Assembly (NCBI GenBank): GCA_039621445.1
Contig: CP154954.1
Span: forward strand, 26,672,954 to 26,736,953
Length of the DNA stretch: 64,000 bases
Source of the DNA: Euglena gracilis
Lineage: Eukaryota
Reading direction: 5' to 3'
Positions 4,847 to 27,916 of the stretch are shown in pieces; position 1 is the first letter of the stretch; each line of letters starts with the position of its first letter. The notes below the pieces were generated by a model. The model was not told the DNA's origin, did not search any database, and saw only the letters and a program-made list of their open reading frames with translations. The position numbers and the translations under genes are program-made.

Positions 4847-4913
4847 TGGGGAGGCTTGCCATAATTGGGTGTTGGTCATTGGAAGACACCAAATTTTGCT
4901 GTCAGATGCCAAC

Positions 4914-5967: not shown

Positions 5968-6030
5968 GTGTGTGTGCGCCGGACCCTCGCGACACCCACC
6001 GCGCGCCCGGCGACGGCGATGGCGACGGCC

Positions 6031-10704: not shown

Positions 10705-13401
10705 CCCCCCCCATCCTTTTGGGAGGGGGGGAGAATCCAGATGCAGGCGGACTCAGCTGTTCTGTTGTGCTCAATTCTGGCAGTCCCTCCCCCTGAGGGC
10801 CTAAACCCCCTCCAAATTTATTTGGCAGAGAAACCTGGTTTTGACCTTCCCCCTTCACGCGACACCTCGGGCTCCCCACTTTGCCCTTGCGAAGCCATGC
10901 CTTGCTCGCCGGCGGTGCTGTTTGGATTGTTTGCTGCGTTGGGCTAGGGGTCCCTGCTTAGTGCCTTTTTCGCCGGAGTTGGCTTACTCCTAATTTTCCC
11001 TTCGGCACCCAGAAGAAAGGAACATCAAATACCACATCAATTGAGAAAAGAAGAAGACAATCCAGCAGTTCAAATTATCCAGAAAGTCACGCTCGTGCAG
11101 AACCTCAAATCAAAAGTTGTTGAATTTTTCGACAGAGTTCAATGGCAGATGCCACTTCAAAGATGCACAGCGCTTCAGGAGGGAGAAGCAGCAGAAGCTG
11201 GACAACCTGACGACGCGGGTCGACTGTGGCGAACCGTGGCTGTCCCTTCCCCAAAAGAAACTTCCCCCACAGAGATTTCCAGCACCCAAACCCCCCAAAA
11301 GTGATGGCCACGGACCCGGGCAGACAGTGGTCAGAAGACCCCGAAAGGGGCAGAAGCAACATCCACCAGCAGGCAACTACGGCCATTGGCGCCAGGACCA
11401 TGGGGGCAAACATTACACAACACACAATGCATCCAAGCGGGGCTATGGCAGCCAAAACCGCACAGGCCATGAAGGCAACAAAGGCCATGAAGGCACAACC
11501 GGCCATGAAGGCATCTACATCATCATAAGTCGCTGGAACAAAGGCCAAGGGGGCCACCAGAATAAGGCCCCACAGGACATGGCAGGGGCAAAAAAGGTCA
11601 AACACCCCCCCACCCTTTCTCATTCACATCACCCCTCAGGGGTGATGTGAATGAGAAAGGGTGGGGCCCCAAGAACCCCTCAAGATTTCAAATGGGCTTG
11701 GCAGCCCCAAACCACTTCAGGAGCAAAGGAGTGGCCACCAGAGGCCCCCCAAGTTTTTTAACGGGCATAGCCAAGATTGTTATCAACAAGACCAACCGTT
11801 TCAAGGCCATTGGGCCCATCAATTATCAGAAGGGGGGCAACCCCAGAAGCTAAAAGATTGTCCCCCAACAGGGGAATTGTATATACTACTCTAGTGGCAG
11901 GCCCAGGAGGATGCAGCCCAAGGGGCAGTGGAGGACAAGGGGGCAGCCCCCCTTCAAGTTTCTTCTTCAATGCCCATGGAAGGGGCAAGTTAAAACAAGG
12001 GGGATATCCAACAAGGGGCCCCTATGGTATGTCGAATGGCAACACCAACGACAAAGTCGAGGATCAGAGAGCCTGTGAGAAGAGCATGCAACCCCCCCAG
12101 CAACCCCTGCAGAATGCCCAATCCCAAGGGGCACCATGGGTGCAGTGTCCAACACCCCCCACCAAACCCCCAGAAAATCACGTGATTGGGAAAATAAATT
12201 CCATGGAGGAAAAATGGGGAGATACCACCCTACACCAGAAGCTTCAGAAAAGTCTAAAAAGGTGGTCAAAAAATGCCCCCCCAGCAACATGTCAATTGAT
12301 AAAAAATGGAATTCAACCCCCCTGGGTGAATCCCCCAAAATTGTCCACCCACCCTGGAGCCAACCTGGACCTGAACCAAGCAGAAAAAATTTTGCTGGAT
12401 TACAAAAAAATGGGTCAGTGAAACGAGTTTAGGATTCAGAAATCCAGCATTTGATCTCATGGTTTTTAATTTCAAAACCAGAGGGAGGAACAACCAAGTG
12501 GAGAATGATCAGCGACTGCAGAGAAATAAATCAGCAGTTTCAAGTAAAACCTTTCAAGCTGGACCATATCCAGCACATTTTTCCAGTTTTGAAAAAAGGT
12601 GACGACCTTTTGAGTTCGACCGCCGGGCGGCGGAGTTTTTCCTTTTAGAAGGCCTTTTCAAAGGCGGTTTAGCTCTAATCATAACGCTTTCTAAAGATTT
12701 CCTTAAAATTCCCTCTCCTAGGGCGCCCATGGTTTGGTTGTGCAAGGAGAGAGAATGAGTGATGCTAGGTATTCCCAAAGGGTTATTTTGGGTCTATTTA
12801 GCACGTTTTAGGCTTTTTATGCATTTTTCCTTTGGCTTTAAGGGAAAATGTTGGATTGGGTGAGAGCGCTTGCAAGTGCTTGGAACAGATTTTCCTGAGA
12901 TTGGCGCCTGAGTTCCTGGAGTTTTTGGGGGGGTTTGCAAGACTCAAAAATGATGGAACTCAGCATAATTTATCAAAATCAAGGGGGGGAACCTTGATTT
13001 TGACCTGGGTTGGTTGATTTTGATGCAACGGGCAAGAATTTGGGATTTGAGAGCGCTTAGGAATCAGCGCACTCAATCCTAAATTTAATTGCCCATCAAG
13101 GGCATCAAAATCATATTTTCTCTCACAGGGGTTCCATTTATTTTCCTTTTGGCCATTGTCAATTGTTGCAATTACAAACAATTATTATTGTGAATTCAAG
13201 CATTGGAATTGCAATTGCAAATGGAAAGTCCAATTGAGAACAATCAATCAAGCCAACAAGAGGGTGAGGTTTGTTCCCCCAATCCCCCTCCATGTGTGGG
13301 AAAAGGGGCAGGGGGCTGGGGCTCCCAAACTCAGGCAACCACAGGCCAAATTTCACCCCAAAACCCCCTTTTTGGCCCAGAAACTGTGAGAAATGACACC
13401 C

Positions 13402-15112
13402 AGGGGGGGGGGCCACTCTGGCCCCCACTTTGTCTTTGCCATTGGCAGATTTGACATTTACAGGTTCTTCTGTAGCAATTCTTGTACTCCCCTGCCAGCA
13501 TAAATCCTTCCCTTTCAGCAACCTTCAGCGCCCAGGGGCCACAGACATTTGTAGGATCTTTCCCCAGGTACTTAACACACTGCCTCAAATTTTCCTTTTC
13601 AATCTGCTCCTCCTTGCGCCTTGATTCCTCAATCAGCCAATTCATTGCACCTAAACTTCCCAAAACCACAGCAAGAAACAAACCAGAAGTCAAAGCCCCA
13701 AAGGGTTCATACTGCTTGCCACCTGCACAAAGTTACAGACGACAGATTGTGGAATGTACAAATTAGGAATCTCTGGCCTGGCTCTGCTTAATTCTGCTGC
13801 CATCTGGGAGCGAATCCCACACTCCCCTCCTCAAAAAGCTTCCCAAGCTATATCAGCCCTTGGCATCTGGGAGTCGCTCACAGATGGGTTTCACCTGTTC
13901 CACCTGACTTTTCACCGCCCTCGAGCCACACAAGTCTTTTTTCGAGCAATTTCCGACCCCACCATGCCACACCCGTGCATGCCGTGGCCAATTGCCTGCG
14001 GTTTGTGCACAGGGGGCAATTGGTTCCCTGGAGCAATGGCTACCTGAGCAATCGTCGAAGGCGTGCCACCAGGGCCTGCCACACAGGGGGGGGCTTTGAG
14101 GCAAAAGTTACCTGGGCAATCATCCCGGAAGATGTGCCACCAGGACTTGCCACACAAGCCGGCATGCCACTGAAAATTCGACCCGGAGCTTTCGACAGGG
14201 GGCGAAAAGAACAAGGCAATCAGGTTAACACCCGGTCCGCTCAGTCCTCGAGCCGCTTGGCAGACTTAAGCTTCAGCCTTCTCCTTCTCCGCTTCCAACT
14301 GGTCGTCTCATTCTCCACTCTCGCCTTGGATTCGTCTGCACTTGGCTCAGCCACACCCTTCTTCGGGACTTCCCAGCTGAACGGTTCTTCCTCGTCGGTG
14401 GACTCGCATGTGACCTTTGACAGCTCCTTCTGGCTTGCTTCTTGCACTGCATCACCAGCATGTACACCTGTGGTATGCACAGCCTCAGCATCTTCTTCAT
14501 CACCCCTTCTGGCATGCAATTGGTCCCCATGACACATCTGTACATCACCACATCCACCTTCATCAACTTCAATGTCACCATTTCAAGGGCTGTAATGCCC
14601 GATGCTGGCATCACACACCTCAGCATTCCTTGACTTGTCATCTTCAGCATGTAGCACTTGAACATCCTTGCAAGGCTCATGAACCCTTTGTGTAGGGGGG
14701 GCCCCACTCTGGCCCCCACTTTGTCTTTGCCATTGGCAGATTTGACATTTACAGGTTTTTCTGTAGCAGTTCTTGTACTCCCCTGCCAGCAAAAATCCTT
14801 CCCCTTCAGCAACCTTCAGCGCCCAGGGGCCACAGACATTTGTAGGATCTTTCCCCAGGTACTTAACACACTGCCTCAAATTTTCCTTTTCAATCTGCTC
14901 CTGCTTGCGCCTTGATTCCTCAATCAGCCAATTCATTGCACCAAACCTTCCCAAAACCACAGCAAGAAACAAACCAGAAGTCAAAGCCCCAAAGGGTTCA
15001 TACTGCTTGCCACCTGCACAAAGTTACAGATGACAGATTGTGGAATGTACAAATTAGGAATCTCTGGCCTGGCTCTGCTTAATTCTGCTGCCATCTGGGA
15101 GCGAATCCCACA
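13402..15112 (-). mobile_element. Non-autonomous LTR element A (~420-bp LTRs) nested in the Gypsy 5' LTR
   Basis: Direct repeats ~13402-13821 (outer end deleted into G-run) and 14691-15112 TG..CA; PPT GAGGAGGGGAG on minus; right TSD AGGG matches the empty site in the 3' LTR (~27651). Confidence 0.88.
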
Positions 15113-15372
15113 AGGGAGGGGTTGAAACCCCAAAGGCACCCCCCTTGGAAATCCCAGTGACACACCCCTCAGGGGTCGGGGAGGGTCCACTGGGAAGTTT
15201 CTCCTTGTAAATGATGGCCCAGTTTCGGCCACAGGGGGGTGCAGAATGGGAAAAAAAATCACAAGTCGGATCGAGGAGCCAAAAAAAGATCCTACGCCGG
15301 AAACTGGCCGGGGCCGGGGTTTCCGCTTCACCCCAGTGCTGCCGTGGGACATGGCAGCACGGGTGTGAATCA

Positions 15373-15382
15373 TGGTAAGCAG
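15373..15382 (+). promoter_or_regulatory. Primer binding site (tRNA-iMet-like TGGTAAGCAG)
   Basis: Immediately follows LTR CA end; same motif at 29804. Confidence 0.7.
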
Positions 15383-16299
15383 TGGTTTTTCTTTCAGCCT
15401 TCAGTTCCAAGTTTTGGGTTGGAAATCCCTGCTCAGAATGTTTTCTTTGATGATCAGCCATTGGCCCAATCTCAGATGGCAAATCTGACGATTGAAGTTT
15501 CGGGGCACAGGGAGTTTGGACCCGAAACCAGTTTGGCTGACCTCAGAACCCCCACAAATATGGGACAGATGTTGGAATTTCAGGGTGGGGATGGCCAGGT
15601 TGTCATTTCTAACCAACAGTGTTTTCCAGAGCCTTTTTCAGGATTTTTGCCTTTGTAAAATATGGGGTACGGTTTTTTGCTGCCTGAGTTGCACCCTCTC
15701 CCAGACTTTTCATTGGCGCAAAATTTGGGGAATCTGCCATCATTACCCGCTTTTGCAATGCCTTTGCCTCCAGCTCAACCAGTTTCTTCAACACCAGCCC
15801 AAGAGCCGGTGGCACTTTTGCAGTTTTCCCAACCATCCCAGGTAGATGGGCTGGCGAAGGAAACGGTAAGTGCCTCGACAGGGCAGGGGGGTGATAACCC
15901 CAGCCCAGTTTTCTTTGAAAAGCCGGCACAGGTCAGTGTGCTGGGCTTAAACAATAATAATAACTGGGACAGCAGCGAACGGGTCAGAGCGGAAGTGGAG
16001 GGGGGCAGAGAAAAACCCGAATGACCAGCCCAGTTCCACTTCTACTCGGCGACCCCGAACACCGGCTTCATCACCAGGCAGTGATGAAGTTCAGCAAAAA
16101 CGGCTGCACCGTGAGGTTGGTCACGGTCAGCCAGCAGCTGCTGCAGCCCCCCAGCCTCCTCATATTTTCATCGAGGGGGGTGAGGAGGAGGTCTAACCCC
16201 CAGCCTATGAAAGTTCTGAAGCCATCCCCAGGGTGGGTTCACAAAATCAGAGATTTGAAGACCCCTGGGGGGCAATTTTTACAAAGTAACAGAGACCTC

Positions 16300-19022
16300 C
16301 AGTGGACTGTGCAGCACCTGACTTTTCGGGTTTGGCTTTGGAAAAAGCTAACAAAGAGTGGGTTCTGCAGCAGCAGCAGCAGCAGCAACAACCCCCCGCA
16401 GTCGACATCCACCTGGTGGAGCACATGACTGCACGAATCGAAGAAACGGCCAGGGCTGACAGACTGCAGATTTTTGAACTTTTTGAAAAAAAATGTGAGG
16501 CCCAGGTGCAAATTTCTGTGAAAAAAATTGACGCACAGGCACTTGAACTTTTCTTCGGGCAGGAGAAATGTTTTGAGGAAAAACTGGTCCACCAGTTTTC
16601 TTCCAGCCGTGATCAGTTTTTGGCCCTGAGGCAGGAATTTTTACGAATTCTGGACAGCCTGCCACAGGAAAATTTGAAACAAGTGCAAAATCAGGTGGCC
16701 GCCTTACCGATTAAGGATCTCGTGCTTGAAAATTTTCAGCGGTTTGCTGAGAATTTTGGAGCCGCCCAGCCAGCTCAGGGGGGGGGGAGAGGCAGAAACT
16801 CTCCAAGAGCTGGCCGTTGTTGCTGCCAAAATCGTTGAAGTTCAGGCTGACCTGGTATCGCTGCGTAGTACGGTACAGGGCCAGGCTCAGCAGCTCCAGC
16901 AGTTCGCTGATTATGTTCGCCAGCTGGGTGAACAAAAATCAGCATGAATACAGCCCTCCATGGTTTTAGTGGGGGTATTCAAAAACTGCACCAGAATATT
17001 TCAGATGAAGTAGGGAAACGACCCTCAGAAATGCAGAAACTGTTGACGGATTGTCAGCAGAATTTTCAGAGTGTTTATCAACAGATTTTTTCCCAGGAGA
17101 AAAAATTTGGTGGGCTGGTGGAGGAATTAAGGCAGGGACTTGAAAAAGTTGGGGGGAACACTTTCGAGTTTGCAGAAAGTGTTGCAGGATTTACAAAAAA
17201 ATGGACCCGTACACCCAACTGCAGAACCGAGAGGGGTTTTGCAAAAAAAATTCTGACATGTGGTGGCTGCGGCAGCGCAGCCAGCAGCCCCTACACCCAG
17301 TGGGGCTGCCACAGCCTGGGCAGCAGCTGGCCCAGCAGCCCGTCGTCCAGCTAGTCCAGCAGCCTGGCCAGCCAGCAGGCCAGCCGCAGCCTGCTCACGG
17401 GCTGCCAATGGGGCTGGGCCAGCCGTCAGCTGGACAGCAGCAGCCCCAGCAGGTGCCCAGTGCTGACCCAGCTTTTTCAGATCAGATTATTTCTCATAAT
17501 AAATCTGCAGTTTCAAACATTTCCCCTCCCTTAGTGATTGAGGGGGGATTTGTTTTGGAGGACACGCAAGGCACGGCAGTGGTTTCTTCTGTGTGTCCCT
17601 CCACATATTTCTGCAGCCCCTGCTTTCTCGATTAGGCCTATCGGGACAGGGGGGGGGCTGCAGCCAACCCAGGTCACGGGTTGGGTTTTCCTTTTATCGG
17701 TGACCCAGTAGCTTTTGAAATTTTGCAGGGAGGTGCTAAGCCTATTTTGATAAATCGGGCAGCATTTCCTGGCAAGATTTTGAAGTAGATTGGAATCTTT
17801 ACTGGGATAGGTTGACATCAGGCAAACCGTACTCTAATTTGCAAAAGCTGCAGGTTTCTGAGGCATGTTTAGGACCCAGATTAGGGGAGGAAATCAGGCT
17901 CTATCGGTTGAATGGAACTAAATTAAGTTACCCAACCATATTGGCCCAGTTCCAGAACCGTTATGCCTCGAATAAGGGGCTTACGGCTCGGAAAATATGG
18001 CACGAGGTAACTATGGTAAACGAAGGCAAAATTACCCGGGCTGATCTGCAAGAATTTTGGATTAAATGTTGCAGTGCCTGGCACCATGTAAAGGTTGCCA
18101 CAGCCGGGGAGGCTCGTAGATTATTTTTGGAAAGAACTCATCCTTTTTTAAGCAAGTTTTGCATAGAAGAGGAGGATAACCGAGCCCGTAAACAACCCAT
18201 TGTCAGGCTCACAGGGATACCAAATCCCACGGTGGATGGGATTCAAAGGAGTGTGAGCCAGATCACTGGGGGGATTGATCCACGGAACGTGGTTATCAAA
18301 AACCCTGGTGCCATTTGCCTTATTTATATCAGTTCCCCGGAGGAGGCACTGAAATTAACAGCCGTAAATGGAAGGAAATTGCAGGGAATGGAAAATTTGC
18401 TCAACGCCGAATTGGTGGAACAACTAATGACCGTTGAGGAAATGTTTGCTTTTGCCGAGGGCAGGTTGGCTCTTCGGGAGAAGCAGGATTTGGCTTTGAA
18501 TCAGCACCATTTTCCCAGATTATTCAGCAAATCGACAACAAAAGGCTCAGGGTAAATACAGGTGTTGGAAAAAGGCCAGACCCCCCCCCCGGTGTCCCCA
18601 ACATCCATGCCAGCACCAGCAGCCGGGGGGCAGGTTCACACCTCAAAATCTGCCCACAGCCAGCTGCGAAGGGCGATAAGGGGCCAGCCCAGCCAGCCCC
18701 GCGTGGCAGGTCCCCTTCTTCGTCTTCGCGGCCAGCAGCAGTTTCATGGTCGTGAACCCAACGTCCAGCACCCCCAGCCCGGCAAGGCAAGGGGGGGCAG
18801 ACCTGGACCCCGCACGCATCAGGTAGGGGCATGTCTCCATATCCATGCTTCAACTGTGGGGAGGGCGGACATTATTTTTTTGAGTGTGACAAACCGCTGA
18901 GTGAGGCCCTTGCTAAATGTAATGATTTTTGGCGAACTAATGGAAAAGGCAAGGGGCAGCCCAACTGTAAAGGGCAGCAAGTCACTCAGCGAAATTGCTC
19001 GGGCAATGGGGGTGCATGGTAA
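16300..19022 (+). pseudogene. gag: Gypsy gag-like region (Q-rich/coiled N-terminus, capsid-like 17812-18555, zinc knuckle)
   Basis: CFNCGEGGHYFFEC (CX2CX4HX4C) at ~18846-18887; multiple frameshifts. Confidence 0.7.
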
Positions 19023-19329
19023 AAGGTGGGTGGGCATACCTCTTCTCCACCTGGGGCCCAATAGGGGGGCCAGGGGCAGTTTGAGAATGGGGGGGGCTGC
19101 CCATGGCCGTGTCTCTCCACCCTGTGAGGGAAACGGTGTAAATATTTCTGCTTCAAAGAAACTGGGGTGTACAGGATTTTATGGCTGATTCAGGGTGTGG
19201 CGAAAAACATTCTTTGGATCAGCCCCCCAGATATTTGAATCGGTCTCGTTACTCCTGGAGGGAAGTAAAATGTTCAAGGGTTCCTGTTTTGTATTCAAAT
19301 CTGCCACAGCCCAACCCCCTACCATCAGC

Positions 19330-19960
19330 TCAGCGACCTCAGGCATTAGATTTATTCGCTGGCACAGGTTCGGTGGTGAGGCGGTTGGCAGAACGGGGGT
19401 ATGAAGTTTTGTCAATCGAAAATGCTCCCTGGACGAACTTCCACCCCCACACAGACATTTTAACCTGGCACTACAGGCGATACCCGGTTGGATTTTTTGA
19501 GGTTATTGCCGCTAGACCCCCCTGTAATATTTATTCCACGGCTAATAACCCCAGACCAAGGGACTTCTCCCAGGCGGATGCCCTGGTGGAGAGAACCATG
19601 GAAAATATAGATTATTTTGAGCCCAAGTTGTGGTGGTTGGAGAACCCCCGCACTGGTCTTTTGCGAAATAGGGAGGTGGTGAAAAACCTGCCCTATATCG
19701 ACATTGATTATTGTCAGTTTTCAGATTTGGGTTATAAAAAGCCACACACGTTTCTGGTGCTGCCCTCCCATTTCACAACTACGGTCGGTGTCGTGTGATG
19801 GCGAATCGTGTCCTAACCTGGTGATGGGGGACAATGGGCAGTTCCGGCACCGTGAATTGTTGGGGGGCAGAAAAAATGAAGTTTTCCCTCCGACAAAAAG
19901 GAAGAATACCCCCCTGGTGATTGATTATCTCCTAAGTTCTGGGTATTTTCTGGGGGGCTA
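19330..19960 (+). pseudogene. C5-cytosine DNA methyltransferase domain inside the Gypsy polyprotein (frameshift ~19745)
   Basis: Motif I ALDLFAGTGS, II VLSIE, III TDIL, IV ARPPC, VI WWLENP, VIII-like DYCQF..GYKKP/TRFW. Confidence 0.9.
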
Positions 19961-20119
19961 GCCCAAAGAGATTTCCCAAAATTCCCAGGATTTTGAGGAA
20001 GGGGAAATTCCAGACCGTTGCTGTCATTTGGCCAACACCTTGAAGGTCAATCAGATGTGGCCCATTGAAAACGAGCTGCAACTTTTGATACTATCTCAAA
20101 CGTATCTCCCTAATTGAGA

Positions 20120-20480
20120 TACCAAGCAGCTCAAAGTTTTGGTGGACACGGGAGCCCAGGTGAACCTGGTCAAAAGGTTCATCGTTCCAAAACATCTGGC
20201 CAGGTCACCACGAATGCCGATTCGGCTGGTGGCTGCCAACGGCCAATGCGTTTTGGGGGACGACCAGTATATTAAATTGGAGTTGGGTTTTCAACGCAGG
20301 GGTACGGGGCAGGGGGGCACCCGGGCCTTGTACCTCGAAGGGGAAGTCTACCTCGCGAATATTGAGGTAGATGCTATACTATCATTTCCAAGGTTAGCCG
20401 AACATGGTTTGGGTGTGTTCCCACACCATAACGCTTTGGTTTATGACAATCCTGATCTGACTTTCTTGTACGGGTGGGAT
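20120..20480 (+). pseudogene. Retropepsin aspartic protease
   Basis: LVDTGAQVNLV catalytic motif, IRLVAANG, DAIL. Confidence 0.9.
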
Positions 20481-20879
20481 ACCAGAAATCAGAAAAGGAA
20501 ATCCCATAAGGGGAAGAAAAAACACAATTCGCAAAAAAGAGTTGGGTTGTGGTTTCTGACTTCGGAGAATCCCCTGAAAACGCACCAACCACGGAGTCCC
20601 TTGAAAATGAAAAGGTGTGGTTGCACCTGCAAAAAATGAATTTGCACCTACCCTTGCAAGGCTTTGATATGCAACCAAAATTTCCTGGCAAGAAGGAATT
20701 GCATACCATAGCCAAGCATCTCACCGAATCGCCAGCCGAGGACAAGGCAGTGAATGCCATAATCCAGGCTCGCGACTCGGATGAGAAGGAGGACCCCAGG
20801 GTGGTAGCATTTCGGAATAAAATTCTTCAGGATTTTGAAGGGGAGGTGTTGGGTATGGAGGTACCCCCTGACCCTCCTG

Positions 20880-22260
20880 TTCGGGGACCTTATGGTTACG
20901 CCCAGATTCCTCTGAAGGAGGGTGCTGTACCCACAACGCAAAAAACCTTTGTGTTACACGATGAAAGATTTGAAGCTCACAACAAGGTCACCCAGGAAAG
21001 GTGGCACCGGAAATTTGTTGAGCGATTGCCCAAGGGAACAAATTCGGAATGGCTGTCCGTAACATTTGTAGTTCCGAAAAAAGGAGGCGAATGGAGGGGA
21101 GTGGTAGACATGCGGGGGCCTAACAGTCAAACTAGGCATGTGTCCTACCCATTTCCCGTAATTGAAGACCTCCTGGTAAAACAAGGTGGAAACATGATGT
21201 TTTCCATCTTGGATTTACGGCAGGCTTTCCACCAACAGCCTTTGGACCCGGAAAGCCGGCCCATCACATGTTGTAGTACCCCCCTCGGTCTTTTTCAGTG
21301 GAGGGTTAATGTGATGGGTCTAACAAACGCAAGCCAGCAGTTTTAGCAAATGATGGAAGATCGCCTCTTCCCCGTGGGAGACGTGGCTGATCCTTACATC
21401 GACGACATTTTGACTGGAACCCGAGTGCGTCCTGGTGAGGATTTACTCGCAGCACATGACATGGATTTGCGAAGAGTCCTTGAAGTTTTACGAAAAGACA
21501 GATTTGTAGCCGACAAAAGAAAATGCCGCACGATCTGGGTGGGGGGGTGAGAAAACCATCCCCTGGAAAGCTTATGGCCATTGAAAAATGGGAGCCACCC
21601 CAAACAATCACGGGTTTACGTGCTTTTCTGGGGTTCACAAATTATTACAGCTCCTATGTGAAGGATTACGCCCACATTGTCGCTTGCCTTCAAGGTAAGC
21701 TCAACGTTTCACGAGTGGACGGCAAGAAGGGTTCCAAGAAAAGGATTTCTTGGGACCATCCGACATTGAGGCATTCCAAAAAATTAAATCACTGTTGTGC
21801 AGTGAATTAATTTTGCAACACGTTAAGCCAGACAAACCATTTGTTTTAAGAGTGGATGCCAGCCAGTATGCGGTTGGTGCCACCCTTGAACAATTAGTCG
21901 GGGAGGATAGGGCTCCTACTCCTGAAGACGCACGGGCCAAGCGTACTGTGCCTGTCGCCTTCATGAGTAGGAAGCTAACGGGCAGCCAAAGAAACTGGGT
22001 ACCTAGGAAACAGGAGACTTATGCCATAATCCTAGCCTTACAAAAGTGGGAATCATGGATTGGGCTGCAGCCCATCCTGGTTCTCACGGACCACAATTCT
22101 AGATGCACCAAGTGGTCCCATTGGGAGAAGGGCTAGGTGGCATCAAATATTATCAAATTTCGATTTGTCGGTTGGGTATATCCCGGGACGGGAAAATACC
22201 ATAGCCGATTTGTTGTCAAGGTGGGCTTACCTGGCCTCCCATGCCTTGAAGGACAATTTC
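20880..22260 (+). pseudogene. pol: Gypsy reverse transcriptase + RNase H (stop and frameshifts)
   Basis: WRGVVDMRGPNSQT, FSILDLRQAFHQ, YIDD, LRAFLGFTNYY, LRVDASQYAVGATL, ETYAI, N.IADLLSR. Confidence 0.95.
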
Positions 22261-22433
22261 AAGGCATGGGTTAGCCCTTGACACCAAGGAAATGAGGGAA
22301 ATCATTCAAACAGAAAAATTGGAAGAGGCAGAATCTATGTGGCTACGGTTAGTGGCCAACCAACCACAGCCAATACATACATTCGTGGAGTCACCACACG
22401 GGGAGGTGCTACCAGGGGGTCCGGGGACACGGG

Positions 22434-24116
22434 TGTTTTCTGAGTGTCTCCTTTTACCCACTGGGGGGTCAAACTTGAAAACGTTTCCTTTCCAGCAGCA
22501 CTCACTTTCCTTCAGCACAGCATAAACCAAGACTTGAAATCGTCATCTGGCGCTCAGGCCTTCCAGGAGTCAAAGAGTTCAGGACAGTTGCAGCTGCAAA
22601 AACAGAAATTTTGTAATTAGGATTCTCGCCTCCTAATTTAATTTTGGGTTTTGAAATTTTAAACCTGGCGCCGCCCACACACCCCTCTCTGGACACTTCG
22701 TGCCCACTGCCTTCGGCAATTTTTTTGCGGCGCCAAAATTGGCCTTTTTTCTTTTGGGGGGGAGGCGGCTGAAATTTGTTGTTTTTTTAATTTTTGAACG
22801 CTGAATCAGGGATATAATACATCCGTTGCAGGGATTTAGTCCAACAATGTCCAGCAGCAAAATAGGGGGGGCACAGGGCCACCAGCCAACCCCAGAGCCC
22901 TTGGGGCACCATGGGAAAGTTTGGTCCCCCTCCCAACCTTCCCCAGGACACTCCTGGGATGAGGGGGCCAGTGGGGGGTTTCCAGGGGGAGTCCCAGGGC
23001 CTGTGGGTAGGCCCCCTTGTGGCGGTCCTCCCACCTGGGCCCTGGGCCTGGGCCTGGCCAGCACAAACTCAAAGCCAATCTTGCAGGGAGGGGGCTCAAA
23101 TTGAACACACAATCATTGCAAAGAAGCTTCACCACTTGAATCACTGAAATTTGGGCTGTCCCCTGTGCCGACCTGGAGCCTAAGGTGCACTTGTTGGCAG
23201 GACCCTCCTTTCATCTTTTGCCTCCTCATTCTCCTTTTTGCTGAACTTGAAATTTGATTAGAAACTTTTGCCATTTTGAAACATTGCCTTATCCTTCTGC
23301 AGACAAATGCCACTTGTACTGGCCATTTTGTGGGGGGGACTGTGAACCCTGCCCCAACCAACTCAAACAACGGTGTGGCACAAGGATACTCCAGCATTCT
23401 GACAACAATGTCTGGAAGATCTTCCCACCAGGGGACAGTCACCCACCTTGGGACAACCAGCACCGCATGACCATGATCCTTCTTCAGCTTGTGGATGACA
23501 TTTGCAATGAGGTTGAAGGGGGGATTTGCCCACAACAATCCAACAATGGAATGTGTCCACTTCACTGTGAAGGAGTCTTCCACAAATTGTGACCCAGGTC
23601 CCCACCAGCATTTGAATCTCTTGCTGTCTTCCAAACTGAATGCATCAATGTTGGGGGTCTTCAAACCCAATCTCTCAAAGATTTCAACAACATACTGAAA
23701 TTTCACTGCATACAGCTCAGATTTCCAGCCAAGTTTTCTGCAGCATTTATCTTCCCAAATTTCTTCATCATTGACAATCCCTGACTTGACACTTTCTGAA
23801 ATGTCCATTTCTTCTGGCCAAACTGGCTGACTTTTGTCCTCCAAGACTTGCGCAACAAATGAACTCTTTGTGTTTTCTGAGTGTCTCCTTTTACCAACTG
23901 GGGGGTCAAACTTGAAACTTTTTCCTTTCCAGCAGCACTCACTTTCCTTCAGCACAGCATAAACCAAGACTTGAAATCGTCATCGTGCGCTCAGGCCTTA
24001 CAGCAGTCAAAGAGTTCTGAACAGTTGCAGCTGCAAAAACAGAAATTTTGTAATTAGGATAGGCGCATCCTAATTCAATTTTGGGTTTTGAAATTTTAAA
24101 CCTGGCACCGCCCACA
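22434..24116 (-). mobile_element. Non-autonomous LTR element B (246-bp LTRs) carrying an N6-adenine MTase
   Basis: LTRs 22434-22679 and 23871-24116, TG..CA, 4-bp TSD CGGG, PPT AGAGAGGGG on minus; sits between Gypsy RH and IN. Confidence 0.92.
23113..23808 (-). CDS. Dam-like N6-adenine DNA methyltransferase (DIRS-MT-like), open ORF
   Basis: PNIDAFS (motif I-like), LLWANPPF (motif IV), AVLVVPRW..PWW; no stops; first ATG ~23808. Confidence 0.8.
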   Translation of the reverse strand: MDISESVKSGIVNDEEIWEDKCCRKLGWKSELYAVKFQYVVEIFERLGLKTPNIDAFSLEDSKRFKCWWGPGSQFVEDSFTVKWTHSIVGLLWANPPFNLIANVIHKLKKDHGHAVLVVPRWVTVPWWEDLPDIVVRMLEYPCATPLFELVGAGFTVPPTKWPVQVAFVCRRIRQCFKMAKVSNQISSSAKRRMRRQKMKGGSCQQVHLRLQVGTGDSPNFSDSSGEASLQ

Positions 24117-24559
24117 CGGGTTGACGGTGCACACAACCGGGGGATAGGAATTCAGAACCACTTGGAGGAACAAAACCCCAGGTTGGGTTCAACCTCCACC
24201 CCCAAGGGAGAAAAATGAAAACATGTTTCATTCTCAACTCGGGTTGACGAGTTTGGGAATGAGACAAGTCTTGTGGACGAGGTCCAAGAGCCAAGGGGGG
24301 AGCATTTTCCATTGACACGCTTTTCTATACCAGCTTCGCCAACAATTCCAACCCCTGAACCTGCTGCCGCGGCTACCACTGAGGTACCTGGGGCAGACCG
24401 AGAATCACCTGTGTTGTCTTCAGGTGGTTTGAGTGGTGAGGGGGGGGGGAGCCACATCTACAGCCGATTCCTCACCCATCTCCCCCGGATCTGTGTGGGA
24501 TTTATCGTGGAAGGAGGAATATTTAAAAAGTTCCCTCCTTGGTCACCAATTTTTCAGGT

Positions 24560-25976
24560 TACCCAGGATTCAAAGGTGCCGTGGCCTGAAAATGTAAAGG
24601 TTTTTGGGGACAAAAGGTTTTTCGAGGAGAGGCTTTGTGTGCCCAAATCTCTCCAAGAAAACCTCATTCGGGATCACCACTCATACCAAGGGCATGTGGG
24701 ATTCCCAAGGTTATGGGAATGCATGTCCCTTAGGTATGATTAGGCTGATCACTCACTCGCTCGAGAATTTGCTAAAGGAGTCATGGGCCTTTCTGGGACT
24801 TGCCAAGCGTGCCGACGGCCGGAGAGTCTTAAGGGTATAGTGGAATCTACACCCATACCCCCAGCCGTAATGTATTCGGTGGCCCTGACATGTTTAGCAT
24901 GCCTCTCGTGGAGTGGGAAGGAAATTCTTACGACTCCAGGCTTGGGTGTGTGGATCGTCTCTCCGGTTGGATAGTGGCGATCCCCCACCTAGCAATAGGA
25001 TTTACCCAAGCCAAGGCAGCCAACCAAATGCTGTTGCATGCTTGGAGACCCTTTGGCGTCCCTTCCATTATTACTTCCGATCTGGGCCCACATTTTGTCG
25101 CCGGTTGGTGGCAGTGTGTGGCAGTTGGTGGCAATGTGTGCCTTGATGGGAATTAGGAAAGCCTACTCCCAGGCCTACGATCACCAGGCGAATGGAAGGG
25201 CGGAGAGGGCTGGCCAACAAATAATGGAACGGCTTGAGAAAATTCAGGTTGAGGACAAGTTGAATTGGGTTGAAGCCCTCCCCCAAGCACTAGACCGTAT
25301 CCAGGATACGCCGGGGGGGAGAGGCCTAAGCCCATTTCAAATCTTGTTCGGTCGACACCGTTCATTGTGTGGTTTACCTTATGAACCGTTAAGGGATTGT
25401 GAAGATGCCTGATCATTTTTTTCTCGGCAAAGATAAATTGATTTGGTAGTGGCTGGCAAAATGAATAATTTGCATGCCAAGCAATGTGCTCGGGCCAACT
25501 GTGGGAGTTGGGAGCCATTGGAGGTGGGGAATCTGGTGTTGTACCTCAGACCCCCCGATGGTGGCACAAAACTGGATTCCCGTTGGTTGGGCCCTTGCAA
25601 GGTTACCGCAAGGGAGGGAATTCATTCCTACCTAATTGAGGTCAAACCGGGCCATATTATGAAGGCCCATCGGAAGGCTTTGAAGGTATATGTGGAGGAC
25701 CCCACATCCGATAAGCCTATCCCCCTATTTTTCCATCGGCGGACGGTACCTGAGGCGGAAGGTGCCCCAGATACCTGGTTAGTGGATAAAATCCTAAACC
25801 ACAAGTTCGTTAATGGAAAAATGTTTTTCTTAACGAAGTGGCAAGGTCTTGAGGAGGCGAATTGGGAACCGGTGGAACATTTTTCCCAGGAGTATTATAG
25901 TGATGTAATAGATTATTGTCTGGCAAAAGGGTTGCCGTTGGATGTCTCTAAGGATTTAACGGCAACGGCAACCTGA
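24560..25976 (+). pseudogene. pol: Gypsy integrase with C-terminal chromodomain
   Basis: HH..GH/CQAC zinc motif, VDRLSG, IITSDLGPHF, QANGRAER, SPFQILFG, WLGP, chromodomain VDKILNHK..FFLTKWQG..NWEP. Confidence 0.92.
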
Positions 25977-27916
25977 AAAAAGGGGGAAAGGAGAGGTGAA
26001 AAAGAGCCTGGAGTGGTTGCCTGGGGAGAGGGAGGTTCCATTCTATGCCCCTTCACAGATGCAGGTGGACCCCATCACAGGGCTGAGGCATTGTGAAAAA
26101 TGACGGGAGTTTCCTCGTCATTGGTTTCATTTTTTTATTTCTCCCCTGAAGTTTTCATTCGCCACCACACCCTGGTTTGGGTGAGGCTGGTGTCGGCAAT
26201 CGAGGACATTTCATTGCCCCTGTTGATTTGTTGCCATTTTTCATTGAACTCCCGTGAAATGATTTCAAAAGAGAATGAAGGATTCTCGTGGCTGGGGGGA
26301 AACCAGCCGAGAATATTATTTTTTATACGGGTGGGTGTTTTCCAATCGAGGGATCCCACCCCGGAACGGGAAGGGATGTTGCTAACAACATCAAAAGCAA
26401 AACGTTGAATGAGTGCATGATTGCCACCCGTTTTGTTTACGTTGTTGTGGGTGGATTCCGGTTTGGAAGTTTCACCAAAAATTCTTAACGAGGACAAACC
26501 AACGGAAGCACAACCGAGGGTTTGTTCTTTTGACAGCCTCCTCCAAGTATGGCTTTGAGATTGCCCTGTCGGTTTGGCTGGGCAAAGCCACATTGCTAAA
26601 TTTCCAAATGGGGGAAGGAACCACCCCCCACAACGGTGTGCATGGTTTGCCACCACACTAAGGGGAGGCAAACCGGCACCCAAGGAAGACGCCGAAGCCC
26701 AACACCCCGAACTTCGACGAGGCGTTTGGCTCTGGCAACCATCACTATCCGTTTCATCCACCTACGCAGGTCGGATTGTCAATTCGAAGTCTGGGACTCT
26801 GAGTTGGTCGAGTTGGAGGTTGATGCAAGATATTTGAAACGGTTGTTTTCTGGTATTGGCGTACGAGGAGCATGTGGAGAGAACGACTGGAGATGGTAAT
26901 TTCATCGGCCTACCCATGCGACTCGCTATCCTGACTGATTCAAAAGGTCGTGACTCCTCCCCTTGCGACGACAGTCGGGGGTTTCACCCCCCCCCCTCCT
27001 TTTCGCTTTCCTTGGGATGGGAATGAAAAAAATATTGAAATAGTGCGTGTTAAGAGAAAAAAATGGATTGGGTGAGAGCGCTTGCAAGCGCTTGGAACAG
27101 ATTTTCCTGAGATTGGCGCCTGAGTTCCTGGAGTTTTTGCAAGGGTTTGCAAGACTCAAAAATGATGGAATTCAGCATAATTTATCAAAATCAAGGGGGG
27201 AAAACTTGATTTTGACCTGGGTTGGTTCATTTTGATGCAATGGGCAAGAATTTGGGGTTTCAGAGCGCTTAGGAATCAGCGCACTCAATCTTAAATTTAA
27301 CTGCCCATCAAGGGCATCAAAATCATATTTTCTCTCACAGGATTTACCTTTATTTTCCTTTTGGCCATTGTCAATTGTTGCAATTACAAACAATTATTAT
27401 TGTGAATTCAAGCTTTGAAATTGCAATTGCAAATGGAAAGTCCAATTGAGAACAATCAATCAAGTCAACAAGAGGGTGAGGTTTGTTCCCCCAATCCCCC
27501 TCCATCTGTGGAAAACGGGGCAGGGGGGTGGGGCTCCCAAACTCAGGCAACCACAGACCAAATTTCACCCCAAAACCCCCTTTTTGGCCTAGAAACGGTG
27601 AGAAATGACACCCAGGGGGGGGGGGGTTGCTCTAACTGGTTCAACTGAGCAGGGAGGGGTTGCAACCCCAAAGGCACCCCCCTTGGAAATACCAGTGACA
27701 CCCCACTCAGGGGTCGGGGAGGGTCCACTGGGAAGTTTATCCTTGGAAATGATGGCCCAGTTTCGGCCACGGGGCGATGCAGAATGGGAATAAAAATTCC
27801 GACACAAGTCGGCTCGAGGAGCCAAAAAACGATCCTACGCCGGAAACTGGCCCGGGGCCGGGGTTTCCGCTTCACTCCAGTGCTGCCGTGGAACATGGCA
27901 GCACGGGTGTGAAACA

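What the first reader, a model, noticed from the sequence alone, without database searches (positions are those of the whole stretch)
19330..19960. Chromodomain Gypsy retrotransposon encoding a C5-cytosine methyltransferase between gag and protease
Seen: ordered C5-MTase motifs (DLFAGTG, PPC, ENP, YC..GYKKP.TRFW) in the same orientation, between the CCHC knuckle and DTG protease, with no separate repeats or TSD around them. The ENP/YC-type motifs resemble compact viral/bacterial-type MTases rather than DNMT1/3 (inference from motif style). Known: DNMT-carrying retrotransposons have been reported in dinoflagellates and charophyte algae. Inference: possibly an independent capture, giving an element that both writes 5mC (for example on its own cDNA) and reads chromatin through its chromodomain.
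Basis: partly seen in the sequence, partly recalled or inferred. Interest (0 to 1): 0.85.

Follow-up and report, generated by a model that had tools for sequence, protein, structure and literature searches.

The report
Retrotransposon carrying a compact virus-type cytosine methyltransferase
A decayed jumping gene of the Gypsy/chromovirus type carries, between its capsid and protease genes, a miniature DNA cytosine methyltransferase whose closest relatives are small virus genes. The domain belongs to the whole element family, and a 2026 preprint already describes similar methyltransferase-bearing elements.

Summary
Window 19325-19960 encodes a compact (~215 aa) C5-cytosine-methyltransferase-like domain between the gag CCHC knuckle and the DTG protease of an LTR Ty3/Gypsy chromovirus (about 12852-27916). 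This copy is dead: the domain has a frameshift near 19744, gag and pol have many more, there are two nested inserts, and the LTRs are 92-95% alike.

The domain is a family trait and not a one-off insert. Other copies in three DNA runs cover it. Relatives also carry it in uninterrupted ORFs: P0050 (2513 aa) is MTase-RT-RNaseH-integrase-chromodomain, and metagenome locus L124 is MTase-PR-RT-RNaseH.

The catalytic Cys and Glu are nearly invariant across 154 relatives. An AlphaFold model of relative P0012 matches DNMT3A and M.HhaI at Z about 14.

By sequence, the nearest relatives are standalone ~210-aa methyltransferases on phage and giant-virus contigs (phrog_757). All retrotransposon-linked sequences form one clade.

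A sister architecture, DAM-PR-MTase-RT in one ORF (L121), matches the "EpiLTRs" of a May 2026 preprint. In the window, the Dam-like ORF is only an antisense nested insert.

I rate this a new variant of a known kind, of moderate interest. Enzyme activity and its target are inferred, not shown.

The parts
12852..15372 (+). 5' LTR (TG...CA). It is interrupted by a ~1.7 kb nested insert, 13413-15112, which has its own 418-bp terminal direct repeats (13404-13821 and 14695-15112).
   Evidence: Self-BLAST: 12838-13412 matches 27050-27624 at 94.6%; 15113-15369 matches 27651-27913 at 92.4%; 13404-13821 matches 14695-15112 at 97.6%. Sequence read.
15373..15385 (+). Primer-binding-site-like stretch starting TGG, directly after the 5' LTR.
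   Evidence: Read directly from the sequence. Not matched to any tRNA; no tRNA gene lies in the window.
15964..19022 (+). gag region in several broken frames, ending with a CCHC zinc knuckle at about 18846-18887.
   Evidence: ORF list. Pfam zf-CCHC E=0.0014, 19.1 bits, below the 20.8 cut-off. The motif CX2CX4HX4C was read directly.
19325..19960 (+). Compact C5-cytosine-methyltransferase-like domain. Motifs I (FAGTG), IV (PPC), VI (ENP) and the VIII-like YCQF..GYKKP lie in the frame of ORF 19142-19798. The rest (TRFW, C..C..H cluster, C-terminal helix) lies in the frame of ORF 19683-19961. The frameshift is near 19744.
   Evidence: The length difference at 19744 against other copies comes, table 4.
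20118..20440 (+). Aspartic protease (VLVDTGA).
   Evidence: ORF 20118-20639. tblastn of P0044, P0090 and P0067 protease parts hits 20124-20438.
20696..21530 (+). Reverse transcriptase, in broken frames.
   Evidence: Pfam RVT_1 E=7.6e-9 on ORF 20510-21346. tblastn of P0074, P0025 and P0050.
21756..22254 (+). RNase H.
   Evidence: Pfam RT_RNaseH_2 E=7e-24 and RT_RNaseH E=4.6e-21. tblastn.
22433..24117 (.). Nested insert. A unique 1189 bp (22681-23869) is flanked by a 248-bp direct duplication of the element's own RNase H-integrase linker (22433-22680 and 23870-24117).
   Evidence: Repeat D3 at 94%. P0050 residues 1750-1941 (190 aa) have no match between window 22521 and 24522. The roughly 564 bp left after removing the insert and one repeat fits that gap.
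23113..23979 (-). Dam-like (N6-adenine MTase-like) ORF with an NPPF motif, antisense to the element and inside the nested insert.
   Evidence: ORF. It matches the Dam (PF05869) parts of P0040, P0044 and P0067, 9 of 154 relatives, and locus L121. Pfam on the ORF itself gave no family even at E<=10.
24522..25412 (+). Integrase (zinc-binding H2C2 and core), in broken frames.
   Evidence: Pfam Integrase_H2C2 E=0.0017. tblastn of P0050 1941-2413 and P0093 361-841 hits 24522-25961.
25779..25883 (+). Chromodomain at the integrase C-terminus.
   Evidence: Pfam Chromo E=1e-4, 22.6 bits, below the 25.1 cut-off. The homologous region in P0050 scores 28.2 bits, in P0093 32.3 and in L179 36.5.
27052..27063 (+). 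Polypurine tract (AAGAGAAAAAAA) directly before the 3' LTR.
   Evidence: Read directly from the sequence.
27064..27916 (+). 3' LTR (TG...CA).
40689..43808 (-). Second, 5'-truncated copy of the element's 3' end (chromodomain region and LTR) together with the same flank. It looks like an inverted segmental duplication and not a separate insertion.
   Evidence: Self-BLAST: 25722-28858 matches 43808-40689 at 96.5% and runs about 940 bp past the LTR end.

Best explanation
The window holds an old, inactivated copy of an LTR Ty3/Gypsy chromovirus. As a family trait, this element encodes a miniature C5-cytosine DNA methyltransferase between gag and protease.

Shown:
- The element's anatomy.
- Homology and fold of the domain. 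It has the full catalytic core (motifs I, IV, VI, a VIII-like motif and the C-terminal helix). In place of the usual target-recognition domain it has a ~45-residue segment with a near-invariant Cys/Cys/Cys/His set.
- In-frame linkage of the domain to PR and RT in relatives.
- Strong conservation of the catalytic residues.
- Sequence kinship with standalone small MTases on phage and giant-virus contigs.
- A single clade for all retrotransposon-linked sequences.

Inferred:
- In intact copies the MTase is made as part of the Gag-Pol polyprotein and released by the protease in or near the virus-like particle.
- It methylates cytosines of the element's own double-stranded cDNA, and perhaps nearby host DNA after integration.
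- A new copy therefore enters a CpG-methylating host genome already marked, while the integrase chromodomain steers it to heterochromatin.
- The module was most likely exchanged once between a virus and a retrotransposon. A sub-lineage later combined it with a DIRS-type Dam domain, giving DAM-PR-MTase-RT, the 'EpiLTR' layout.
For: Anatomy
- LTRs, PBS-like TGG, PPT, and the order CCHC, MTase, PR, RT, RNase H, IN, chromodomain.

Family trait
- Of the 10 longest relatives scanned, P0050 is one 2513-aa protein with PF00145 (25.3 bits), RVT_1, RNase H, rve and Chromo, and P0025 is MTase-RT-RNase H.
- In a second scan of 10 relatives, P0001 and P0022 have the MTase followed by an aspartic protease.
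- Among 80 metagenome loci kept, 7 link the MTase to PR, RT or IN (L121-L126, L179).
- L124 has one uninterrupted 1196-aa ORF with PF00145, RVT_1 and RNase H.
- In runs X1, X2 and X14, contigs cover every one of 30 bins, including the MTase region. Examples are X1 records 2-3 at 19197-19590 and X14 records 9-10 at 19159-19742.
- At 19744 nearly all laid depth differs from the window by one base in length: 18590 of 18833 in X1, 17544 of 17836 in X2, and 13032 of 13061 in X14. The frameshift is therefore private to this copy.

Enzyme-like nature
- Across 154 relatives the motif IV Cys is kept in 152, the motif VI Glu in 154, and the motif I Phe in 127 of 131 non-gap rows.
- C125, C152, C157 and H170 are kept in 146/147, 117/119, 117/119 and 105/109 non-gap rows.
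- The profile search against PDB puts only C5-MTases at the top (DNMT1 E=1e-4, M.HhaI 0.013).
- The AF2 model of P0012 has pLDDT 89 and pTM 0.80.
- Foldseek's top hits are DNMT3A/3B/3C, DNMT1 and M.HaeIII at E=5e-9.
- VIA gives Z=14.6 to DNMT3A (188 residues aligned, rmsd 4.5). It gives Z=14.2 to M.HhaI (194 aligned), with model residues 1-208 spanning chain residues 13-326.

Viral kinship
- phrog_757 matches the window ORF at 3.2e-9, P0012 at 1.6e-15 and the L060 ORF at 2e-32.
- 389 of 594 pattern matches in IMG/VR encode relatives, and all 80 kept loci hold standalone ORFs of 169-295 aa.
- Their neighbours include family-B DNA polymerase (L030, L034, L188, L199), ribonucleotide reductase plus SNF2 (L004), and PcfJ plus a peptidoglycan-binding domain (L068).
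- The nearest ESM Atlas clusters are PF00145-bearing and labelled Viruses.

One clade
- FastTree, 153 rows: 13 of 13 TE-linked rows fall in a 50-row set (support 95) that holds none of the 69 viral rows.
- IQ-TREE quick, 87 rows: 18 of 18 TE-linked rows plus 15 unlabelled rows separate from 54 others, including all 28 viral or standalone rows (SH-aLRT 95.1).

Host context
- CpG observed/expected is 0.46-0.63, with TG/CA at 1.1-1.3, across the window.
Against: - No activity or methylation data exist for this domain family in any call or in any paper I read.
- The window's own domain fails the Pfam gathering score (15.5 against 22 bits). Six of the 20 relatives scanned also score below it, and four of the 10 long ones show no PF00145 at E<=0.001.
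- The canonical target-recognition domain and motif IX are missing, and motif VIII is altered (K-P-T-R instead of Q-x-R-x-R). A different substrate (RNA, single-stranded DNA, RNA:DNA hybrid) or loss of activity is therefore not excluded.
- The zinc site is inferred from conservation only.
- The trees are unrooted, so the direction of transfer (virus to TE or TE to virus) is not shown.
- A few contigs skip across the region, for example 18831 to 20545 (one contig each in X1 and X2, depth 49 and 90). Some deleted derivatives without the MTase probably exist (table 5).
- P0050's 620 N-terminal residues are low-complexity and lack a CCHC knuckle. A gag-MTase fusion in one frame is therefore not demonstrated.
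- The RNA-library contigs (X20) may come from DNA in that library.
Confidence: 0.72

Rival explanations
1. The domain is retained but is not a DNA 5mC writer. It could be an RNA m5C methyltransferase acting on the element's RNA or primer tRNA, as DNMT2 acts on tRNA. It could instead be a SAM-binding or nucleic-acid-binding pseudo-enzyme with a structural role in the particle.
For: There is no canonical target-recognition domain and motif VIII is altered. DNMT2 is among the weak PDB hits (E=0.035). Inside a retroelement particle the available substrates are RNA, RNA:DNA hybrid and nascent DNA.
Against: The catalytic Cys, the Glu and the SAM-binding loop are almost invariant, which argues against a dead fold. 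The closest relatives sit in double-stranded DNA virus contigs, where DNA modification is the usual role; that role is from established knowledge and was not tested here. The best fold matches are DNA MTases.
Confidence: 0.15
2. The methyltransferase comes from a cellular eukaryotic DNMT lineage (DNMT4-like), as the 2026 preprint concludes for EpiLTR DNMTs. The viral small MTases would then be secondary or convergent.
For: The preprint's section 8 (read) places the Euglena and Cymbomonas EpiLTR DNMTs as sister to DNMT4 with 100% bootstrap for their monophyly. My trees are unrooted.
Against: As its main text describes, that tree used representative eukaryotic DNMT families. No viral compact MTases are mentioned, and the supplementary figure could not be seen. 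Here the window ORF matches a phage family (phrog_757, 3.2e-9) far better than PF00145 (0.012). Hundreds of standalone ~210-aa relatives with the same Cys/His segment lie on viral contigs. I had no DNMT4 sequence to test directly.
Confidence: 0.2
3. The domain is a one-off foreign insertion, or a chimeric assembly, present only in this copy.
For: This copy does hold two nested inserts elsewhere, and the region is repeat-dense.
Against: No repeats bracket the domain. Contigs from three DNA runs cover it. The same MTase-PR-RT order occurs in P0050, P0074, P0141, L123, L124, L125 and L179.
Confidence: 0.02
4. The enzyme acts mainly in trans on the host genome and not on the element's own cDNA. 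It might spread or maintain CpG methylation, or blunt a methylation-sensitive host defence.
For: The window is CpG-depleted throughout. The 2018 paper discusses possible effects of retrotransposon DNMTs on host epigenomes (abstract). The preprint reports 5mC as nearly the default CG state in Euglena gracilis (section 10).
Against: No data here separate cis from trans action. The preprint reports low or undetectable LTR expression in E. gracilis, and whether the window comes from that species is unverified.
Confidence: 0.1

Closest known systems
'EpiLTRs' of Euglena gracilis and Cymbomonas tetramitiformis (Fernandez-Moreno et al., bioRxiv 10.64898/2026.05.21.726589; I read sections 5-8 and 10 and passages of 9, 11, 14, 18 and 20; supplements closed)
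   Same: These are LTR/Ty3-like elements with a chromodomain and a cytosine MTase. They are associated with Dam-type adenine MTases and DIRS elements, and nested or chimeric copies are reported in E. gracilis. Relatives of the window's MTase occur in exactly this layout: L121 is DAM-PR-MTase-RT in one ORF, and P0044, P0040, P0090, P0067 and P0023 carry Dam plus MTase.
   Different: The window's element type has the MTase between gag and protease, with no in-frame DAM. Its Dam-like ORF is antisense inside a nested insert. The preprint started from DAM, so DAM-less MTase chromoviruses were outside its screen. It puts the DNMT next to DNMT4, whereas I find compact viral MTases as nearest sequence relatives. 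Whether the two DNMT modules are the same could not be checked.
KnitGypsy-Dnmt3 of Klebsormidium nitens (de Mendoza et al. 2018, PMC5890265; I read the abstract and sections 6 and 9)
   Same: It is a Gypsy LTR retrotransposon with a cytosine MTase inside its polyprotein. Key residues are conserved, and self-methylation of cDNA was proposed.
   Different: That MTase is a full-size eukaryotic Dnmt3 within Pol. Here it is a ~215-aa virus-type enzyme upstream of PR. No chromodomain is mentioned for KnitGypsy in the sections I read.
SymbioLINE-Dnmt and SymbioDIRS-Dnmt3 of Symbiodinium (same 2018 paper)
   Same: These are retrotransposon-borne DNMTs in a host with pervasive CG methylation. The paper raises a possible viral source for them.
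   Different: They are LINE and DIRS backbones, not a chromovirus. They use an orphan DNMT or Dnmt3, not the compact family.
phrog_757 and related standalone small DNA methyltransferases of phages and giant viruses
   Same: They share the ~200-235 aa size, the motifs (LELFSGTGS, ASPPC.EYS, ENP, DYC..YRK.TR.W) and the Cys/His segment. They fall on the same tree.
   Different: They are free-standing genes in DNA virus genomes, with no PR, RT or IN linkage. The TE-linked sequences form their own clade.
Chromoviruses (Ty3/Gypsy with an integrase chromodomain, e.g. Tf1/MAGGY-type; recalled knowledge; Gao et al. 2008 seen only as a reference-list entry)
   Same: They share LTRs, the PR-RT-RNase H-IN order and a C-terminal chromodomain.
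   Different: Canonical chromoviruses carry no methyltransferase.

Membership tests
C5-cytosine methyltransferase superfamily (PF00145) | Motif I, F-x-G-x-G SAM-binding loop | tested here: met
   The window reads DLFAGTG. Phe is kept in 127 of 131 and Gly in 130 of 131 non-gap relatives.
C5-cytosine methyltransferase superfamily (PF00145) | Motif IV, Pro-Cys catalytic nucleophile | tested here: met
   The window reads ARPPCNIYS. Cys is kept in 152 of 154 relatives. It aligns with the PPCQ of DNMT1.
C5-cytosine methyltransferase superfamily (PF00145) | Motif VI, E-N-V | tested here: met
   It is present as E-N-P. Glu is kept in 154 of 154 and Pro in 152 of 154 relatives. It aligns with the LENV of DNMT1.
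C5-cytosine methyltransferase superfamily (PF00145) | Motif VIII (Q-x-R-x-R), motif IX and a full target-recognition domain | tested here: inconclusive
   The family has DYCQF..GYKKPTRFW followed by a ~45-residue Cys/Cys/His segment. PF00145 matches stop at about profile position 110-136 of 324. Even so, the model spans M.HhaI residues 13-326.
C5-cytosine methyltransferase superfamily (PF00145) | Pfam gathering score (22 bits) | tested here: inconclusive
   The window ORF scores 15.5 bits. Relatives reach the score in 10 of the 20 scanned: 3 of 10 and 7 of 10.
C5-cytosine methyltransferase superfamily (PF00145) | Catalytic-domain fold | tested here: met
   This was tested on relative P0012 (52% identical to the window piece), not on the window copy. 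pLDDT is 89. Foldseek gives E=5e-9 to DNMT3A, and VIA gives Z=14.6 to DNMT3A and Z=14.2 to M.HhaI.
C5-cytosine methyltransferase superfamily (PF00145) | Transfer of a methyl group to cytosine C5 in DNA | not testable with these tools
   No assay or methylome was available.
Ty3/Gypsy chromovirus | LTRs with TG...CA ends, PBS and PPT | tested here: met
   No matching target-site duplication was found: the left flank 12600-12851 is unexplained.
Ty3/Gypsy chromovirus | Gene order PR-RT-RNase H-IN | tested here: met
Ty3/Gypsy chromovirus | Chromodomain at the integrase C-terminus | tested here: met
   The window scores 22.6 bits, E=1e-4, below the 25.1 cut-off. The homologous regions of P0050, P0093 and L179 pass it.
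EpiLTR (chromodomain + DAM + DNMT in one LTR element; 2026 preprint) | DAM and DNMT both encoded by the element itself, in sense | tested here: not met
   In the window the Dam-like ORF (23113-23979) is antisense and lies in a 1189-bp insert flanked by a 248-bp duplication. The relative L121 does meet this feature.
EpiLTR (chromodomain + DAM + DNMT in one LTR element; 2026 preprint) | DNMT module belonging to the clade the preprint describes (sister to DNMT4) | not testable with these tools
   The preprint's sequences and its Supplementary Fig. 2D are in closed supplements, and I held no DNMT4 sequence.
DNMT3-type retrotransposon MTases (KnitGypsy-Dnmt3, SymbioDIRS-Dnmt3) | Phylogenetic placement within Dnmt3 | not tested
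   DNMT3A/B are the top fold matches. They are tied within one Z unit with M.HhaI, and DNMT1 is 1.1 Z units below. By sequence, DNMT1 and phage families score better. No tree with Dnmt3 was built.

The most novel reading that the evidence does not exclude
A large, old and diverse lineage of chromoviruses took a minimal, zinc-stabilised C5-methyltransferase from a DNA virus and placed it ahead of the protease. The enzyme pre-methylates the element's cDNA so that new insertions pass as 'self' in hosts whose genomes are CpG-methylated by default. The DAM+DNMT 'EpiLTR' layout evolved from this ancestor. In hosts where the family is very abundant, these element-borne enzymes could contribute substantially to genome-wide CpG methylation.
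Probability: 0.2. Interest if true: 0.8.

Novelty: new variant of a known kind. Interest (0 to 1): 0.5.

Why it matters
Retrotransposons that carry their own DNA-methylation enzymes show that mobile elements manipulate the host's epigenetic system as well as being silenced by it. The variant described here adds four things.
- An element type with the methyltransferase between gag and protease and without the adenine methyltransferase.
- Evidence that the enzyme belongs to a miniature, virus-associated family, which points to a virus-retrotransposon exchange.
- A compact ~215-aa enzyme with a conserved Cys/His segment in place of the usual DNA-recognition domain. If active, it would be a small and tractable cytosine methyltransferase.
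- Two alternative positions of the module in related elements, which shows module shuffling within Pol.

The concept itself is already in print (2018 paper, 2026 preprint), so the interest is moderate.

Tried and rejected
- Host genome. No whole genome is held for this window, so genome-wide copies, a copy census and dN/dS could not be done.
- Earlier findings of this scan. There was nothing for this genome or sequence. One note on another genome was found.
- RNA genes. Rfam and tRNA scans of the window found nothing, so there is no host marker and no tRNA to match the PBS.
- Other copies in the window. No second MTase copy is present.
- Pfam on the Dam-like ORF gave no family even at E<=10. 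Its identity rests on relatives.
- The first IMG/VR scan, with the broad alignment A1, failed for lack of a conserved stretch. It worked with the narrower A2.
- Rooting the tree. The canonical Dcm-type genes among the GTDB loci were cut by the 2-kb flanks, so I abandoned rooting and the direction of transfer is open.
- Prokaryote genomes. Only 39 loci were found, and the full-length ones are almost all in MAGs. That is too little to call the family bacterial.
- Copy number. I considered estimating copy number or genome share from contig depth and rejected it, because the tool states that summed contig depth is not a copy number.
- RNA library. X20 holds 19 contigs at 85-99% likeness, including 19068-19535 and 19625-19903. 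DNA carry-over is not excluded, so I do not claim transcription or a habitat.
- Host species. The window's features match what the preprint and PMC11252322 report for Euglena gracilis: CpG depletion, about 50% GC, dense nested LTR/DIRS/Dam elements and an LTR-rich genome. This is only a fit to published descriptions and was not tested.
- Target-site duplication. None was found, and the 252 bp at 12600-12851 remain unexplained.
Full report
OBSERVATION

The stretch 19325-19960 on the + strand reads as an ordered set of C5-methyltransferase motifs.
- ORF 19142-19798 gives ...ALDLFAGTGS (motif I) ... ARPPCNIYS (motif IV) ... WWLENPRTG (motif VI) ... DYCQFSDLGYKKPHT.
- The adjacent frame (19683-19961) continues ...TRFWCC ... 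SCDGESCPNL ... FRHRELLGG ... TPLVIDYLL.
- The domain lies after a CCHC knuckle (about 18846-18887; zf-CCHC E=0.0014) and before a DTG protease (ORF 20118-20639).
- No direct repeats of 60 nt or more bracket it.

On its own the window ORF is a weak Pfam hit: PF00145 E=0.012, 15.5 bits against a cut-off of 22. Its best PDB sequence match is DNMT1 at E=0.017.

It is nonetheless a member of a large conserved family. phmmer against 1.84 billion representatives found 1939 proteins at E<=0.001, 830 at E<=1e-10 and 72 at E<=1e-30, the best at 47-53% identity. The second-frame piece matches the same proteins immediately downstream (best E=1.5e-17). The domain is therefore complete apart from one frameshift near 19744 (alignment).

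THE ELEMENT

Self-BLAST defines the LTRs.
- The 5' LTR is 12852-15372 and the 3' LTR is 27064-27916. Both have TG...CA ends and they are 94.6% and 92.4% alike in two blocks.
- TGG follows the 5' LTR, and a polypurine tract precedes the 3' LTR.

Between the LTRs lie, in order, the following.
- gag in broken frames.
- The MTase-like domain.
- PR.
- RT: RVT_1 E=7.6e-9.
- RNase H: E=7e-24.
- Integrase.
- A chromodomain: E=1e-4, below cut-off. The homologous regions of P0050, P0093 and L179 pass the cut-off.

The copy is old and dead.
- It has many frame breaks.
- A ~1.7-kb insert with its own 418-bp terminal repeats sits in the 5' LTR.
- A 1189-bp insert (22681-23869) sits between RNase H and integrase, flanked by a 248-bp duplication of the element's own sequence.

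That second insert carries, antisense, a 288-codon ORF with an NPPF motif. The ORF is homologous to the Dam (PF05869) parts of relatives.

The element sits inside a DIRS-like RT gene: 12146-12596 plus 27911-28858 match 51356-52765 at 77%. I found no target-site duplication, and 12600-12851 is unexplained.

FAMILY TRAIT OR ONE-OFF?

The domain is a family trait.

(i) Relatives carry it in frame.
- Of the 10 longest relatives, P0050 (2513 aa) is PF00145 (25.3 bits)-RVT_1-RNase H-rve-Chromo in one protein, P0025 is MTase-RT-RNase H, and P0074 is MTase-RT.
- In a further scan of 10 relatives, P0001 and P0022 have the MTase followed by an aspartic protease.

(ii) Metagenome contigs link it to pol.
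- 293 of 349 pattern matches encode relatives.
- Of the 80 loci kept, 7 link the MTase to PR, RT or IN (L121-L126, L179).
- L124 has one uninterrupted 1196-aa ORF with PF00145, RVT_1 and RNase H. L179 continues into integrase and chromodomain.

(iii) Other copies in sequencing runs cover it.
- Contigs of DNA runs X1, X2 and X14 at 85% likeness or more numbered 3660, 3417 and 1811. They cover all 30 bins of 17700-22400, including the MTase region.
- At 19744 almost all laid depth differs from the window by one base in length: 18590 of 18833 in X1, 17544 of 17836 in X2, and 13032 of 13061 in X14. The frameshift is therefore private to this copy, or an assembly error in it.

Against a fully uniform family, single contigs skip 18831 to 20545 (X1 and X2) and 18194 to 19352 (X2). 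Some deleted derivatives probably exist.

WHAT THE DOMAIN IS

A 43-sequence alignment (A1) and a 154-sequence profile alignment show near-invariance of the catalytic set.

| Residue | Kept in |
|---|---|
| Motif I Phe | 127 of 131 non-gap rows |
| Motif I Gly | 130 of 131 non-gap rows |
| Motif IV Cys | 152 of 154 |
| Motif VI Glu | 154 of 154 |
| Motif VI Pro | 152 of 154 |

Four further residues are also nearly invariant. In P0012 numbering these are Cys125, Cys152, Cys157 and His170, kept in 146/147, 117/119, 117/119 and 105/109 non-gap rows. From conservation alone I read them as a probable zinc site that replaces the usual target-recognition domain.

The window copy keeps all of these residues, spread across its two frames.

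Structural evidence comes from relative P0012, not from the window copy.
- The A1 profile finds only C5-MTases at the top of the PDB search: DNMT1 E=1e-4, M.HhaI 0.013, DNMT2 0.035.
- AlphaFold2 on P0012 (52% identical to the window piece) gives pLDDT 89 and pTM 0.80.
- Foldseek's best hits are DNMT3A/3B/3C, DNMT1 and M.HaeIII at E=5e-9.
- VIA gives Z=14.6 to DNMT3A (188 aligned, rmsd 4.5), Z=14.2 to M.HhaI (194 aligned; model 1-208 on chain 13-326) and Z=13.5 to DNMT1.

So this is the whole catalytic domain of a C5-MTase in about 205 residues. Activity is not shown.

NEAREST RELATIVES

By sequence the domain is closer to a phage family than to PF00145. phrog_757 ('DNA methyltransferase', 247 positions) matches the window ORF at 3.2e-9, P0012 at 1.6e-15, and the viral ORFs L060 and P0153 at 2e-32 and 5.6e-31.

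In IMG/VR, 389 of 594 pattern matches encode relatives, and all 80 loci kept hold standalone ORFs of 169-295 aa.

Their neighbours point to both giant viruses and phages.
- Family-B DNA polymerase lies 2-5 kb downstream in L030, L034 (a 'GVMAG' contig), L188 and L199.
- Ribonucleotide reductase and an SNF2 helicase lie in L004.
- PcfJ and a peptidoglycan-binding domain lie in L068.

The ESM Atlas also returns PF00145-bearing clusters labelled Viruses. GTDB genomes gave only 39 loci, with the full-length ones nearly all in MAGs.

On trees the retrotransposon-linked sequences form one group.
- FastTree, 153 rows: 13 of 13 TE-linked rows lie in a 50-row set (support 95) with none of the 69 viral rows.
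- IQ-TREE quick, 87 rows: 18 of 18 TE-linked rows plus 15 unlabelled rows separate from 54 others, including all 28 viral or standalone rows (SH-aLRT 95.1).

The trees are unrooted and an attempt to root them failed. One exchange between virus and retrotransposon fits the data, but its direction is not shown.

TWO ARCHITECTURES

Relatives place the module in two ways.
- MTase-PR-RT: the window, P0050, P0074, P0141, L123-L125, L179.
- PR-MTase-RT: L121, L122, L126, P0044, P0090, P0067.

In L121 a single ORF (3771-6305) reads Dam (PF05869 E=1e-7)-PR-MTase-RT. Nine of the 154 relatives also contain a stretch like the window's Dam-like ORF.

This second layout is what a May 2026 preprint calls 'EpiLTRs' (10.64898/2026.05.21.726589; sections 5-8 and 10 and passages read).
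- These are LTR elements of Euglena gracilis and Cymbomonas with chromodomain, DAM and DNMT.
- The preprint places the DNMT sister to DNMT4.
- It notes nested or chimeric DIRS/LTR copies in E. gracilis and near-default CG methylation there.

The 2018 paper (PMC5890265; abstract and sections 6 and 9) described SymbioLINE-Dnmt, SymbioDIRS-Dnmt3 and KnitGypsy-Dnmt3. My full-text searches for further reports returned only these two works on retrotransposon DNMTs.

Because the preprint screened from DAM, DAM-less MTase chromoviruses like the window's were outside its net. Whether its DNMT is this compact module I could not check, because the supplements are closed.

MECHANISM (INFERRED)

In intact copies the MTase would be translated with Gag-Pol, cut out by PR, and be present where reverse transcription occurs. 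The simplest role, as proposed in 2018 for other elements, is methylation of the element's own double-stranded cDNA, or of DNA around the new insertion.

The window is CpG-depleted (observed/expected 0.46-0.63; TG/CA 1.1-1.3), as expected in a CpG-methylating host. A pre-methylated copy would resemble resident DNA, and the chromodomain would steer integration to heterochromatin. That chromodomain role is established for chromoviruses; I recall it and did not test it here.

The viral relatives suggest the ancestral job was marking or protecting viral DNA. Rivals are an RNA or hybrid substrate, a non-catalytic role, and action in trans on the host genome. None is excluded.

HOST

The host is unknown. 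The window's features fit published descriptions of E. gracilis: about 50% GC, CpG depletion, dense nested LTR, DIRS and Dam elements, and an LTR-rich genome. This fit is untested.

VERDICT

This copy is a fossil of a family that carries a compact, virus-type C5-MTase ahead of the protease.

Retrotransposon DNMTs, and chromodomain+DNMT(+DAM) LTR elements, are already reported. I therefore rate it a new variant of a known kind, with interest 0.5.

Noticed in passing
window 22433-24117: A 1189-bp insert carrying an antisense Dam-like ORF (NPPF motif) is flanked by a 248-bp direct duplication (94% alike) of the host element's own RNase H-integrase linker. That is far longer than any ordinary target-site duplication. 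The mechanism is unexplained; template switching, a repair event or misassembly are possible.
   Followed up: partly
window 13404-15112: A ~1.7-kb insert in the 5' LTR has 418-bp terminal direct repeats (97.6% alike) and an ~870-bp interior. It looks like a miniature terminal-repeat element (TRIM-like). It is absent from the 3' LTR and from the second copy at 41627-42479.
   Followed up: partly
window 25722-28858 and 40689-43808: An inverted duplicate (96.5%) of the element's 3' end continues about 940 bp beyond the LTR into the same flank. This is a segmental duplication or an assembly duplication, not an independent insertion.
   Followed up: partly
window 12146-12596, 27911-28858, 51356-52765, 56561-58052: DIRS-like reverse-transcriptase genes (motif HWAAKIDLKDA). 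The Gypsy element is inserted into one of them. A 77%-alike uninterrupted copy at 51356-52765 serves as the 'empty site'. Another RT/RNase H-like ORF pair lies at 56561-58052 on the minus strand.
   Followed up: partly
window 12600-12851: About 250 bp between the break in the DIRS-like host repeat and the first LTR base match neither. No target-site duplication for the Gypsy element could be found.
   Followed up: no
window, whole: CpG observed/expected is 0.46-0.63 with TG/CA excess (1.1-1.3) and TA depletion (0.41-0.72) throughout. No tRNA or Rfam family was found, and I recognised no host gene. Long G and C homopolymer runs occur, for example in the repeats at 10284-10372 and 10593-10681.
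   Followed up: partly
L030, L034, L188, L199: In four virus-like contigs the compact standalone methyltransferase lies 2-5 kb upstream of a family-B DNA polymerase. Three of those polymerases have a C-terminal SAP domain. This looks like conserved neighbourhood in one group of large DNA viruses.
   Followed up: partly
L121 3771-6305; L122; L126: Related elements carry the methyltransferase after the protease instead of before it. L121 has Dam-PR-MTase-RT in one uninterrupted ORF. The module has therefore moved within the polyprotein during the family's history.
   Followed up: partly
L081-L084 and L085, L086, L090: Two MAGs labelled bacterial hold three or four copies each of the compact methyltransferase (up to 80% identical to a query of unknown origin). 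They may contain mis-binned viral or eukaryotic contigs.
   Followed up: no
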